From Octopus vulgaris (taxonomy: Eukaryota): 64,000 bases of DNA. A program made the position numbers and the translations under genes. The notes under the pieces are model-generated. The model worked only from the letters and a program-made list of their open reading frames with translations, was not told where the DNA came from and did no database searches. Of this stretch, positions 11,320 to 49,586 are shown piece by piece; the stretch's first letter is position 1; each line of letters begins with the position of its first letter. The stretch is from contig OX597814.1 of assembly GCA_951406725.2 (NCBI GenBank), forward strand, positions 17,918,001 through 17,982,000, read 5' to 3'.

Positions 11320-11511
11320 TCGCCATGATAGATCGGTAGCCACTACACATTCTTTATTTTCTCTCCTTGTTTCTTTCTGTGTTCCTTTCTGTGGAAGAGC
11401 GTAGACTCGAAACGTTAAAGACTTTTTCACTTCCCGAGCGTTATACTAATACATCTGTTTGTTGTCTACACTACCTGTCTTCGTCTTTGTTTGTTTTATG
11501 AATTCTTCCCC
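11320..11511 (+). mobile_element. ~190 bp (TA)n-embedded element with minimal hammerhead-like motif (Penelope-like pLTR remnant?)
   Basis: CTTT-CTGTGGA-A-GAG.CGTAGA.CTC-GAAAC-GTT-AAAG at 11385-11420, then ccgagcgttatactaatacat shared with the 40.0 kb and 49.4 kb elements; (TA)n on both sides. Confidence 0.65.
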
Positions 11512-12585
11512 TATATATATATATATATATATGAATGGCATGTAAATGAGAATTGCGATTTAGAATGTTATGGATTTTGGATCTGATATCCTACCGCTGA
11601 CCAAGTTGTGCGAGTTTCTTCCACTATACCACCGAGATGATCAATGTTTTGCGAGTAGAATCTTGGCGATAAGCTATTCACAAGCTAGTTATGTTGATGT
11701 GTGTGAGTGTGTGTGAGGATAGATGTAGACGTGTGTGGATGTGTGCATACGCATGTGTTAACGGTTTAGAAACCGGTGTAGTTTATTTCCCTGTCATTTG
11801 GTGTCCAGCAGATTTGCGGATTCACCGAGAAATGAATTTCGCCGTAGCTAGATACAGCTGTAGTTCAATGACTAAAGCAAGGAAAGAACAAATGAATTGT
11901 GTGTGTCTCTCTCTCTTCATATTCCTTTCTCTTCGTGTGTGTGTGTTTCTGTGTCTGTGTCTGTACGCGCGCGTGTATACACTTATAAATATATATAACA
12001 CACACATGTTTGTGCGAAGAATATCCAAGTGTTTGAATGTCTGTGTGCATACGTTATATAAAATACATTTGATAGCCATCTGGAGGTATAATCACACACA
12101 CCTATTTACATATTTACACACATACACAGACATACACATATATATTATATGTTTATATATACATATATATATGTTTATATATATAAATATATATATATAT
12201 ATATATATATATATATATATATATATATATATATATATATATATATGTACATGTGTATGTTCGTTCATTGGGAATTTAGTGTTACACCATATGTACAAGA
12301 GATGACATGTGGTTTCGCTCTGTGCAAAATATCGAGTGTTTTACGATGTGTTAGAACACACTACACATCTTTCTCATGATCTGTAAGCGTTAACCTTACA
12401 GCAACATCCATACAACATCAAACTACTTATATACACACCATGTACATGGTTCGGTTTGACGACTATACCATGCGCATTGACACCCATGCTTAAGCACAAC
12501 TACAACATCTATCTATCTATCCATCTATCTATCTATCTATCTATCTATCTATCTATCTATCTATCTATCTATCTATCTATCTATC

Positions 12586-12760
12586 TTATTTTATTTTTTT
12601 TTTTGTTCTTTTCTTCCCTTTTACGATCCCTCTTGATCGAAAACCTACGCCACCCCCTTTTTTTTCTTTTGTTTTTTGTTTTTTTCATCCCCTAAAAGAA
12701 AAGCTCTACCTTGTAACTTGTCCCATCTGTGTGCAGCCCTGTGTGGCCAATAAAGAAACT
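12586..12760 (+). mobile_element. Short 5'-truncated copy of the same Tx1-like LINE 3' end, in (TATC)n
   Basis: ttttacgatccctcttgatcgaaa...aaaagaaaagctctaccttgtaacttgtcccatctgtgtgcagccctgtgtggccaataaagaaac aligns with about 42050-42198; flanked both sides by (TATC)n. Confidence 0.9.
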
Positions 12761-15055
12761 TATCTATCTATCTATCTATATATCTATCTATCTATCTATC
12801 TATCTATCTATCTATCTATCTATCTATCTATCTATCTATCTATCTATCTATTTATCTATCTATCGTTATATATATATGTTCATACAATATGTGTGTGTGT
12901 ATGTTTTATATCTTATGTAATATAACTCCCAATCTCGCCATATCTGTCCCTTTCTCGATCCCGCTCTTCCTGCTCCTGGTTGTTCGCATCTTTCTTTTTA
13001 TACGCATATACACACGAACATTCACACTTTAGCTTATATTTTTGCCAAAGCCTTCTTTTGTTTCCAATGTTCTTGCTTTAATATCTCACTCTATCTCGTT
13101 CTTTTTCTTGTAGATATGTGGACACTTTTTACAAACACACATATACACAAATGCTCACATTTGAACGCACACATGTATAATGCTCTGAATATAACAGAAA
13201 TAACGCATGTGAATAAAACATGTATGTGTTTGTTAGTGTGTGTGTGTGTGTGCGTGTGTGCTTGGCTGTGTGTATACATTTGCATACATATATACATATA
13301 CATCTTCATATATATATATATATATATACATATACATATATACATATATATATATATATATATATATATATATATATATATATATATATATATATATATA
13401 TATACATACATATATATATATATATATATATATATATACATATATATATATATATGTATATGCACACAAAACCAATCACAAGCACACACATCCAAACATA
13501 CAGACAGACGTTTGTGCTTATGTACATCAGCCCTTATACGAAACATATGGACGGATATACTTAAGTACACACAGCCACATCCACTTGCATGGACATTTGT
13601 ACACGAATACACAAGCTTGTACGCACTCAAGCATACATAAACAACGAAAGACACACACATACACACACACACACAACACACATACACATGTAAGTGCAAC
13701 GCATGTCTGTATATGGATATATATGTATGTGTGTGATACAGTGTTTGTAATATTCTGAGTATGTGTGCGTGCGTGTGTCTGCGTGTGTGTGTGTGTATTT
13801 GTGTGTGTGTGTGTGTGTAAGTATGCATGACCAAGTCTGTGGAATTACACAATGATTGGGTTCTGTGAAAGTAATTTGCTTGTGCAGTCGTCCGCTGTTT
13901 ATCGTCCCTTTCTTTATCGATTTTCTGGGCAACACCCACCTACGCAATCACCTACTCCCCTCCCTGCTAATCTACATACATATATACATACATGCATGCA
14001 TACATACATACATACATACATACATATATACACCCATCCATACATACATACGTACATACATACATACATACACTTATAAAGTTCAGCTAATTTATAGTTT
14101 ATGTTGACCGAGACAATACTAATACAAATGCTGCTGTTGTTACTCTGCTCCATGATGATGATGATGATGATGGTGATGATTCTTATGATGATGCTAAACT
14201 CCATTATCATCGTCGTCTACATCATCATCATCATCATCATTATCATCATCATCATCATCACCTCCACCGTTACCATTTTCATCACTGCCATCATTGCAAT
14301 TATCATTTATAGGAATCGTCATCATTGAATGAAAAATATTGATGCACGCACGCACACACACACACACACACACGCACGCACACACACACACACGCACACA
14401 CACACACACACACACACGCACACACACACACACACACACACACACACACACACACACACACACACACACACACACACACACACACACTAGCGGACATATT
14501 TGTGCGGGTATTGTTGCATATGTGTGTATTAAGTGGTCAAGAACTTCACTTCGAAAAAAACCCCTGCGCGGAACCTTGGCAAGGTATCTTCTACTCTAAG
14601 TGTCCTCTAACGTGTTGACCAATAACATGGGAAAGAATTTGCAAGAACGATGTAGATCATCCGCTATTTCCTTTATCATACATAATACTTTGGGTCGTAA
14701 AACCCATAAAAATTCATCATCATCATCATCATTATCATCAGTAGTAGTAGTAGTAGCAGTAGTCGTATTCATCGTTTGAGAAATACGTAACGATTTTACT
14801 CCTTCTCAAACAGGAATTAAATCCATCTTGGAAAACACATACCGACGTGTTCAAGGTTAACAAAATCATTTTACAAATGTCCTAAACATGTTTACAGATT
14901 GCTCTGTCGCTGTATCCTGCCACGTGCTAATATCTTTTTTTGTCATTGTCCTTACAAATGTTTCTATCGCTCCAGTCACAGATCGGATGGATTATAAACA
15001 CATTCACAAACTGATATGAAATATTTTTAGTTCAAAATATTCAAAACGTTTCTGA

Positions 15056-47963: not shown

Positions 47964-48126
47964 CTTTTCTACTCTAGGCACAAGGCCCGCAATTTTGGGG
48001 GAGGGGAGGGGGCTATTCGATTAGATCGACTCCAGTACGCAACTGGTACTTAATTTATCGACCACGAAAAGATGAAAGGCAAAGTCAACCTTGGCGAAAT
48101 TTGAACTCAGAACGTAAAGACAGACG
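47964..48126 (-). mobile_element. 5'-truncated SINE family B with 22 bp target-site duplication
   Basis: Reverse-complement body cgtctgtctttacgttctgagttcaaatttcgccaaggttgactttgcctttcatc. Flanked by aaataattactgatcaaatatt at 47942-47963 and 48127-48148. Confidence 0.85.
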
Positions 48127-49380
48127 AAATAATTACTGATCAAATATTAATATCGATTTAATCGAATCCCGTCGTTTTGCTCCCCATTATCGCCATAATT
48201 CCTTCAACGAAGTGTGTGCCTTTGTGACAAAGTTAAACAGCTAAATATCTTTATTAAAATACAGTGGTGGGGGAGAAGAACAAATATTTATAGTTTTTAG
48301 TTACGTATCATTAAGTTTCGGGTTCGAATCACACAGTGATTCATTCTACTTTGTAATCTACAAAGGAATCGACAAACTACCAATACTGTACTCTGAATGA
48401 ATCAATCAGATATACTCTCCATTTTTCATGATCTTTATAAAAAAAACCTATAAAACACAGGGAAATCACATTTTAATTTCTATTTTGCTTCAAACCTAAA
48501 ATTCATTTCCAAATCATTCTAAATGAGTCTATGTCATTCCGACCAACATCAAGTTTTATAATTTACCCATTTATTCACAAAAATCTATTTCTTCTATTCT
48601 TCCATTATCTCTCCTTCCTTGTCTTTCTGCTATACTTCCTTCCACTCTATTTCCTTCAATTCTCTTTCTTCCTTTTATGTCTTCCTATTTCTGATTCTGT
48701 GATGATGTCGTTGCGTTAATATCCATCTGTACTTAATGTTAGCGACTTTATCTTGCTTCACATGTCTGGAATATTGGCATTCCTCGTGTAATGCCTTTAG
48801 AATCCGTTTCATTAACTTGACATCAAAAAGCATATTTCACAAATGTATCATTCGTTACAGACTAGATAGACTTCTACATTTCTAATGCGTTTTTTAATAT
48901 GTATTATATATAAACGACGTCGGAGAGTAAAAGCAGGGAAATAGCAGATGGGAGAGCCAAGAGAGTGAATTAAATGCAGCATTTGCCTTTTATATTTGCT
49001 GTGTTGACAAAGAAATAGAAAGCGAAAAATCTTGCGACAGTATAAAATTGGTAGTTCTCTCTTAAAATTTTTAACCATTCCATAATATTTATAATTTTTA
49101 CATTTGCTGTTTTTCTTTCAGTCATTTCACTGTGGTCATGCTAGCGCACTGCTTTTAAAGTTTTTTAGATGTACTGACCCAAACCTCGCTCCTCAGTAGT
49201 TTTAAGTCTGGTGCTAATTCTATCGTTATCTATTGCCGATGTGCTATGATAGGGGAAGTAAACAAACCAACGGTTGTCAAGCTGTGGGTGGAAGATAAAT
49301 ACAGAAATAAAGACAGACACACAAACATATATATATATATATATATATATATATATATATATATATATATATATATATAT

Positions 49381-49586
49381 GTAAATATACTGCACATGAA
49401 TTATTGACGAATTTTCCCTCCTTCTTCCACCTTCCTTTTGGACTTCCCTGTTTCTGAAGAAGAGCTATGCTCGAAACGTGAAACAACCACTCATTTCCTT
49501 CTCCGAGCGTTATATTAATACATTGCGTGTGCTACGTCTTCTTTTTGTTATTTCTCTCTTCTTTGTTTTTTTTTCCTTAATTAATC
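49381..49586 (+). mobile_element. ~205 bp (TA)n-embedded element with minimal hammerhead motif, nested in a SINE
   Basis: TGTTT-CTGAAGA-A-GAGC.TAT.GCTC-GAAAC-GTG-AAACA at 49449-49485 (canonical CUGANGA and GAAA boxes). It sits in the internal (TA)n of the minus-strand SINE-A copy at 49110-49810. Confidence 0.75.
49449..49485 (+). ncRNA. Minimal type-I hammerhead ribozyme-like fold
   Basis: Stem I TGTTT/AAACA, core CUGAAGA, stem II GAGC/GCTC, GAAAC, rudimentary stem III. The cleavage triplet is GUG (non-canonical), so probably inactive as a monomer. Confidence 0.6.

What the first reader, a model, noticed from the sequence alone, without database searches (positions are those of the whole stretch)
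11385..49485. Three divergent (TA)n-inserted elements sharing a minimal hammerhead ribozyme fold with covariation
Seen: ~200 bp elements at 11320, 39927 and 49381 are otherwise poorly similar but all read stemI-core-A-GAG(C)..(G)CTC-GAAAC-GTN-stemI'. Stem I is CTTT/AAAG in one copy and GTTT/AAAC in two, a compensatory C-G/G-C swap. Loop II varies while stem II keeps pairing. Stem III is reduced to the palindrome AACGTT (AACGTG in the third copy). All share a downstream C(C/T)GAGCGT...TAATAC motif and lie inside (TA)n. Known: minimal hammerheads with palindromic stem III mark Penelope-like pLTRs and retrozymes and work as dimers. Inference: several subfamilies of TA-targeting Penelope-derived or retrozyme-like elements.
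Basis: partly seen in the sequence, partly recalled or inferred. Interest (0 to 1): 0.75.

Follow-up and report, generated by a model that had tools for sequence, protein, structure and literature searches.

The report
Penelope retrotransposon tail ends with hammerheads
These three stretches are short tail-end fragments of a known kind of jumping gene, present in tens of thousands of copies in this genome, and each carries a hammerhead-shaped RNA motif predicted to cut itself; whole families have changed normally fixed catalytic letters, so the cutting is likely weak or not needed for spreading.

Summary
Real and of a known kind. The three ~200-bp elements are 5'-truncated pseudo-LTR ends of three related Penelope-like retrotransposon (PLE) families that target (TA)n. 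Longer copies of each run upstream into an RT plus C-terminal GIY-YIG frame with a Neptune/Nematis-type cysteine linker. A sister subfamily of B has an intact 949-aa frame and 6.2-kb head-to-tail tandems. Exact patterns give 8,522 and 16,293 hits, controls 0. The motif fits the published minimal PLE hammerhead: extra A after A9, G-C base of stem II, palindromic ACGU. One stem I pair covaries three ways. Corrections: these are not retrozymes; stem II never varies; the palindrome is four bases. Family A fixes U6, B mostly C4, a further subfamily G17. Of 41 B/C copies reaching 90 nt upstream of the cut site, 37 stop within 30 nt, likely the transcription start. Cleavage and that start are untested. 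The scan noted a U6 core before on other DNA (e1-9559914).

The parts
11320..11493 (+). Element A: 5'-truncated pLTR end of a Neptune-like PLE, family A (U6 core)
11385..11420 (+). Minimal type I hammerhead A: stem I C-G pair, core 11389-11395 with U6, extra A, stem II with top mismatch, U17 at 11416
11434..11452 (+). Conserved downstream motif of A (role unknown; possibly a protein-binding site near the RT start)
   Evidence: alternative-helix role rejected
11287..11319 (.). (TA)n target run, left of A (a shorter run follows at about 11494-11512)
39927..40139 (+). Element B: 5'-truncated pLTR end, family B (C4 core); starts 108 nt upstream of the cut site, at the preferred 5' boundary
40003..40037 (+). 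Minimal type I hammerhead B: stem I G-C pair, core 40007-40013 with C4, extra A, U17 at 40033
40058..40075 (+). Conserved downstream motif of B
40140..40160 (.). (TA)n run at the fixed 3' end of B (another at about 39910-39926)
49381..49588 (+). Element C: old 5'-truncated pLTR end, family C (nearest copies 74-84% identical)
49450..49484 (+). Minimal type I hammerhead C: canonical core 49454-49460, G17 at 49480 (A17 in the other 20 of 21 scored C copies)
49503..49521 (+). Conserved downstream motif of C
49587..49652 (.). (TA)n run at the 3' end of C (left run 49327-49389)

Best explanation
The three elements are short, non-coding 3'-end fragments of three related Penelope-like retrotransposon families inserted in (TA)n, each carrying a minimal hammerhead motif, and they were likely made by the parent element's enzyme copying RNA from a fixed start about 100 nt downstream of the hammerhead and likely running off the RNA's 5' end. 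Shown: parentage, tandem full-length parents, TA targeting, fixed 3' end, preferred 5' boundary, one covarying pair, family-wide core changes. Inferred steps: (1) the GIY-YIG domain nicks (TA)n. (2) The nicked DNA primes on an internal UAUA at the pLTR end; in tandem parents the 3' end continues as TATA into the 5' UTR. (3) From the 5'-proximal site, or from a short pLTR-driven transcript, RT reaches the transcription start about 110 nt upstream of the cut site, giving a ~210-bp copy. (4) The uncleaved RNA is the usual template, since most short copies sampled keep the whole hammerhead region. (5) The hammerhead would cut only as a dimer through ACGU, or with the element's protein; in families with U6, C4 or G17 it is likely slow or dead.
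For: B: L158 and L159 run from RT and GIY-YIG remnants through a ~1.8-kb CA-rich UTR to the hammerhead, 85% alike over 2,556 nt; 2 of 4 extended B loci showed coding remnants. Of 17 loci picked for long frames from 150 RT hits, 16 have this hammerhead downstream of the frame and 11 on both sides. One tandem has 4 hammerheads spaced 6,164, 6,191 and 6,159 nt. L248 has an intact 949-aa frame with DKG, YIDD, CX4CXXC, GIY-YIG and CCHH. A: L350 matches residues 301-947 of that protein at 48-68% identity, ending about 750 nt before the cut site. C: L163 has RT and EN remnants upstream; 1 of 5 extended C loci did. TA targeting: (TA)3+ lies 60-170 nt downstream of the cut site in 47 of 50 copies against 29% background. 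5' boundary: among the first 58 hits, 37 end at -90 to -120, 4 beyond, 17 shorter. A TTCCGG-like motif sits at that boundary in long copies of A, B, C and D. Structure: RNAalifold returns stems I and II unaided. Pair 2.4-1.4 is C-G 5, G-C 5, A-U 4 of 15 hand-picked rows, and G-C 61, C-G 28, A-T 15, other 25 among 129 distinct copies. Literature: PMC4209133 describes the same minimal motif in pLTRs. PMC11167929 shows internal RT initiation, AT-rich nicking, uncleaved RNA as main substrate and a protein-assisted hammerhead.
Against: No 5'-end RNA data: the start site is inferred only from copy ends. The boundary is weaker in A: of 24 copies, 10 end at -80 to -112, 7 beyond and 7 shorter. In the young B' tandems the 5' pLTR mostly extends beyond -230, so those templates began further upstream. 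PMC11167929 found RT starting at a site not homologous to the target, unlike the UAUA priming proposed here. Only one pair covaries; the count of pairs with two-sided change is not above shuffle (491 of 500), although cells changed and the score are (0 of 500). The stem II and core letters were part of my search patterns, so their invariance is partly built in. The youngest subfamily B' has a U-U mismatch in stem I. Folding of window copy A with its 3' flank gives neither stem. Window copy C is linked to coding sequence only through 74-84% relatives. No intact frame was found for A or C.
Confidence: 0.8

Rival explanations
1. Same parentage, but the short copies are a self-propagating SINE-like class: the ~210-bp unit holds an internal promoter, is transcribed where it lands, and is copied in trans by the PLE protein.
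For: The Drosophila virilis Penelope promoter is internal, TATA-less and within the pLTR (PMC2377424, abstract and discussion). Short copies vastly outnumber long ones. Subfamilies such as the G17 group were seen almost only as short copies.
Against: The same boundary appears in several families at the same distance, with a conserved motif just upstream that short copies lose. Long copies with the same core variants exist for A and B.
Confidence: 0.25
2. Plain 5' truncation: RT starts at the 3' pLTR of the full RNA and stalls at a structural or protein barrier near -110, with no relation to a transcription start.
For: 5' truncation is general in PLEs; 17 of 58 B/C copies end earlier and 4 later. 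The boundary is weak in A.
Against: 37 of 41 copies that reach -90 stop within 30 nt, against about 17 of 58 lost over the preceding 60 nt. I did not fold the region around -110, so a barrier there is not excluded.
Confidence: 0.2
3. Non-LTR retrozyme: an independent non-coding unit that self-cleaves, circularises and is copied from the circle.
For: Type I hammerhead, size near 200 nt. A 2026 preprint derives retrozymes from pLTRs (10.64898/2026.07.22.740005, parts 1-2 of 5).
Against: No short tandem array at the three sites. Copies extend into PLE frames. Ends are not at the cut site: the unit runs from about -110 to +100. The hammerhead is the minimal PLE type, not the canonical type of retrozymes (PMC7229834 passages).
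Confidence: 0.05
4. The variant cores are working, tuned ribozymes: U6, C4 and G17 slow cleavage so that full-length RNA survives, and the element's protein switches cleavage on.
For: Position 7 varies freely in A while U6 and the rest stay fixed, as if the fold is under selection. U4C keeps enough activity in vivo in a viroid, and A6C is slow but active (PMC3088659 passages). TA-joined 5' ends are scarce just upstream of the cut site: 1 of 34 in B and 5 of 33 in A, read by eye.
Against: Those 5' ends spread over +1 to +9 and later, not at +1. They are also scarce across the core (54 on one strand) but common again upstream of it, so the pattern may reflect microhomology or RT pausing. It appears in the U6 family as well.
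Confidence: 0.4

Closest known systems
Minimal type I hammerheads in pLTRs of metazoan PLEs (Cervera and de la Pena 2014, PMC4209133; parts 1-2 of 4 read)
   Same: Short helix I (4-5 bp), unpaired nucleotide between 9 and 10.1, G10.1-C11.1 pair, palindromic 15.2-16.2, mostly single dispersed motifs with a few inside full PLEs, many families per genome.
   Different: Helix II is 4 bp and invariant (7-8 bp in Schistosoma). Family-wide U6, C4 and G17 changes; in the parts read the only core change named is U3-A8. Copy number is one to two orders above the 2,000-9,000 reported there.
Neptune/Nematis-type EN+ Penelope-like elements (Craig et al. 2021, PMC8557442; passages)
   Same: RT with C-terminal GIY-YIG, CX2-5CxxC linker, CCHH motif, pLTRs in partial tandems, (TA)n target, hammerhead near the 3' end.
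   Different: Long CA-rich 3' UTR (0.75-2.9 kb) and a 949-aa frame with a long N-terminal extension. Neptune versus Nematis was not resolved, as no tree with named references was built.
Poseidon PAc of Anolis (Frangieh et al. 2024, PMC11167929; parts 1-2 of 4 read)
   Same: Fixed 3' end downstream of the hammerhead, AT-rich target, hammerhead not needed for insertion.
   Different: There RT starts inside the frame at a site unlike the target. Here the 3' end lies in the 5' UTR, about 320 nt before the ATG, at a TATA that matches the target.
Small hammerhead variants of PLEs that cleave as dimers (Lunse et al., RNA Biol 14:1499; not held; seen only as a citation and summary in review PMC6765202)
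   Same: Diminished palindromic stem III, PLE association.
   Different: I could not check whether these particular families or the U6 core are among its variants.
Metazoan non-LTR retrozymes (PMC7229834 passages; bioRxiv 10.64898/2026.07.22.740005)
   Same: Type I hammerhead, small non-coding unit, PLE link.
   Different: Retrozymes are short tandem repeats with canonical hammerheads. These are dispersed monomers continuous with coding parents.

Membership tests
EN+ Penelope-like element (parents of A, B, C) | RT plus C-terminal GIY-YIG in one frame, upstream of the fragment | tested here: met
   Intact 949-aa frame in sister subfamily B'; its homologues carry PF00078 and often PF01541. Broken frames upstream of A, B and C copies.
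EN+ Penelope-like element (parents of A, B, C) | pLTRs from partial or full tandem arrangement | tested here: met
   11 of 17 selected B/B' loci have the hammerhead repeat on both sides of the frame; one 3-unit tandem. Not shown for A or C.
EN+ Penelope-like element (parents of A, B, C) | Hammerhead inside the pLTR near the 3' end | tested here: met
   About 100 nt before the fixed 3' end.
EN+ Penelope-like element (parents of A, B, C) | Retained intron in the 5' UTR; optional 30-40 bp tail; target-site duplication | tested here: inconclusive
   No splice-like joint in contigs of 7 different runs; contigs cannot show absence. Tail not searched. Duplications cannot be read inside (TA)n.
Neptune/Nematis clades | CX2-5CxxC linker and CCHH motif | tested here: met
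   CX4CXXC and CCHH residues in B' and in A remnants; definition from PMC8557442.
Neptune clade proper | RT phylogeny with Neptune rather than Nematis | not tested
   No named reference proteins were on hand; hits carry no clade names.
Hydra clade | CCHH absent, DKT instead of DKG | tested here: not met
   DKG and CCHH present.
Naiad/Chlamys | N-terminal endonuclease | tested here: not met
   Endonuclease is C-terminal.
Minimal PLE hammerhead | Extra nucleotide after A9, G10.1-C11.1, palindromic 15.2-16.2, helix I of 4-5 bp | tested here: met
Minimal PLE hammerhead | Canonical CUGANGA core with an NUH cleavage triplet | tested here: not met
   Window A has U6, B has C4, C has G17. Subfamilies meeting both exist in the genome. 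The NUH rule is recalled, not from a call.
Minimal PLE hammerhead | Self-cleavage as a dimer | not testable with these tools
   RNAcofold does not place the ACGU duplex in the minimum-energy dimer for any of 10 copies; such models are weak for this motif.
Non-LTR retrozyme | Short tandem repeats, each with a canonical type I hammerhead | tested here: not met
   Single copies in (TA)n. No genome-wide search for short arrays of this unit was run.
Non-LTR retrozyme | Circular RNA monomers | not testable with these tools
   Only contigs of runs guessed to be RNA were offered.

The most novel reading that the evidence does not exclude
The ~210-bp copies are fossil 'strong-stop' products of PLE reverse transcription: the enzyme primes at an internal UAUA near the 5' end of its own RNA, runs off at the cap, and the product is integrated, on the order of 100,000 times. 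The same short cDNA could jump to the 3' pLTR and so regenerate pLTRs, a step with no known mechanism. Meanwhile the hammerhead fold is kept while different families fix U6, C4 or G17, a natural allelic series showing that PLEs select the fold, perhaps as a protein-binding or braking device, and not fast catalysis.
Probability: 0.3. Interest if true: 0.6.

Novelty: new member of a known kind. Interest (0 to 1): 0.33.

Why it matters
As an annotation it is ordinary: PLE hammerheads are known to be abundant in animal genomes. Its value is as test material for two open questions. First, what the hammerhead does for PLEs: here sister families with canonical, U6, C4 and G17 cores all spread, and an intact young parent is available for assays. 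Second, how PLE reverse transcription starts and how pLTRs are rebuilt: the fixed 3' end at an internal TATA and the sharp 5' boundary give exact predictions for 5' RACE and in vitro assays. It also assigns tens of thousands of short repeats to their parents.

Tried and rejected
Rfam: no hammerhead match seen; the top rows are microsatellite artefacts. First idea that the elements are complete 200-bp units: rejected, longer copies exist. The best GIY-YIG hits (150 of 6,136 candidates scored) belong to other PLE families; L136 has its own U3-A8 hammerhead-like motif and is not the parent. Alternative inhibitory helix between the downstream YGAGCG motif and the 3' strand of stem II: complementarity is there, but pair probability is at most 0.12 in 10 of 10 copies folded and no covariation was found, so it is not supported. 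Downstream motif as a second catalytic core: does not fit C3-G8 on inspection. Cleavage footprint in 5' ends: suggestive, not diagnostic; anchors differ in family coverage and counts were read by eye from the first 100 rows. RNA evidence: no RNA holder listed on record; contigs gave no usable joints, starts or ends. Literature: 'hammerhead + A6U + catalytic core' 0 papers; 'hammerhead + Penelope-like + octopus' and 'hammerhead + cephalopod + retrotransposon' returned only general papers; the search on pLTR, transcription start and truncation listed nothing on a fixed 5' boundary by title or abstract start. A 2026 octopus repeat annotation lists 31 recently active Penelope-like families and has no occurrence of 'hammerhead' in its main text (PMC13282606, passages). 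Supplements were not read for any paper; those of PMC4209133, PMC8557442 and PMC13282606, and the Lunse paper, may already list these families. The scan's sequence look-up for element B returned nothing.
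Full report
Observation. The three motifs are in the sequence as described. They lie at 11385-11420, 40003-40037 and 49450-49484, with the cleavage nucleotide at 11416, 40033 and 49480. The core pattern occurs 3 times in the window and 0 times in 200 resamplings. Read in hammerhead numbering, each has a 4-bp stem I, a 7-nt core, one extra A, a 4-bp stem II, GAAA, CG, U and position 17. 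The self-complementary part is therefore ACGU. Rfam shows no hammerhead match.

Abundance. The host genome is 2.8 Gb in 227 contigs; an octopod is my inference from size and repeats, not a tool result. An exact B/C pattern gives 8,522 hits and an exact A pattern 16,293, with reversed controls at 0. Eight copies in 120 kb of unselected sequence suggest on the order of 100,000-200,000 in all, a rough figure. A and B have many relatives at 91-99% identity; C's nearest are 74-84%.

Parents. Some relatives extend upstream. For B, 2 of 4 extended loci reach RT and GIY-YIG remnants through a CA-rich UTR. Searching with that RT piece gave 150 scored hits, many in long open frames. I fetched 17 loci chosen for long frames or high score: 16 have the hammerhead downstream of the frame and 11 on both sides. 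One locus is a three-unit tandem with hammerheads 6,164, 6,191 and 6,159 nt apart. The young sister subfamily B' has an intact 949-aa frame with DKG, YIDD, a CX4CXXC linker, GIY-YIG and CCHH. Copies with window B's own hammerhead type have the same layout with broken frames (L242, L252, L253). For A, long copies match that protein at 48-68% up to about 750 nt before the cut site. For C, 1 of 5 extended loci shows RT and EN remnants. By the definitions in PMC8557442 (passages) these are Neptune/Nematis-type elements, not Hydra or Naiad. I built no tree to separate Neptune from Nematis.

Ends. The 3' end is fixed about 100 nt after the cut site and joins (TA)n: 47 of 50 copies against 29% background. 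In tandems the same point continues as TATA into the 5' UTR, so the primer could pair there; this is inference. The 5' ends cluster. Among the first 58 hits, 37 end 90-120 nt upstream of the cut site, 4 go beyond and 17 are shorter; two of the 37 look like a local duplicate and one 'short' copy is a divergent subfamily poorly matched by my references. In A the boundary is weaker: 10 of 24 at -80 to -112, 7 beyond, 7 shorter. Long copies of A, B, C and D carry a TTCCGG-like motif at the boundary; its likeness to an ETS site and an initiator is recalled. All three window copies start at this boundary.

Structure. On 15 hand-picked rows RNAalifold returns stems I and II. One pair covaries, as C-G, G-C and A-U. 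Among 129 distinct copies it is G-C 61, C-G 28, A-T 15 and other 25; that set is enriched for non-G copies by the design. The other seven pairs do not covary, and stem II was fixed by my patterns. All these traits match the minimal PLE hammerhead of PMC4209133, which cleaved weakly and only as dimers or trimers.

Core departures. In A, 98 of the first 100 listed hits have U6 while position 7 takes all four letters. B has C4 in 28 of 28 scored close relatives. C mostly has A17, so G17 in the window copy is private. A separate subfamily with a canonical core fixes G17: 25 of the 100 rows listed, by my count. PMC3088659 (passages) reports A6C as slow and U4C as weak in vitro yet sufficient in vivo. 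A search for A6U found no paper. The scan had noted a U6 family in another genome and a decaying core in this one; I confirmed U6 here independently.

Mechanism. Most likely the PLE protein nicks (TA)n, primes on uncleaved RNA at the pLTR end, and often copies only to the RNA's start, leaving a 210-bp fragment. This fits PMC11167929: internal initiation, AT-rich nicks, hammerhead dispensable and protein-assisted. It differs in proposing target-matched priming. Rivals are SINE-like self-propagation from an internal promoter (PMC2377424), an RT barrier, and a retrozyme. TA-joined 5' ends are scarce just upstream of the cut site (1 of 34 in B, 5 of 33 in A) but are spread out, so they do not prove cleavage. 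An inhibitory helix with the downstream motif was rejected. RNA data were uninformative.

Verdict. New members of a known kind; interest 0.33. The sharp 5' boundary and the natural core series are the testable extras.

Noticed in passing
window 39696-39909: A tRNA-derived SINE-like repeat (recognised by recall; ARAGORN finds no tRNA) lies directly upstream of element B's TA run.
   Followed up: no
window about 40930-41640 (L001:2504-3211): Open frame remnant that looks like the C-terminal zinc-knuckle region of a LINE; a similar piece is in L036.
   Followed up: no
L136:1931-7167: A separate young Neptune-like PLE family in (TA)n with a 781-codon RT-EN frame, an extra upstream frame, CCAAT/CRE-rich promoter repeats and a U3-A8 hammerhead-like motif; many intact copies.
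   Followed up: partly
L101:3640-4020; L092: Tail-to-tail inverted pairs around a TA run. In L101 both halves share the same truncation point and private changes, suggesting one event or a local fold-back duplication.
   Followed up: no
L263, L264, L272, L275, L278, L282, L284, L285: Subfamily with canonical CUGANGA core, A-U stem I pair and fixed G17.
   Followed up: partly
L236:4493-4540: Youngest subfamily B' has the favourable C17 but a U-U mismatch in stem I.
   Followed up: partly
L047, L163, L166, L098: Other hammerhead-like families turned up in flanks: a U3-A8 type with a GTTG/CAAC stem II, and one with a longer stem II.
   Followed up: no
window 46333-46722: Two-copy 193-bp tandem repeat, 95% alike.
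   Followed up: no
L016, L027, L105, L285, L320: Copies of one family often sit in the TA run of another family's copy, giving chains of A and B fragments.
   Followed up: no
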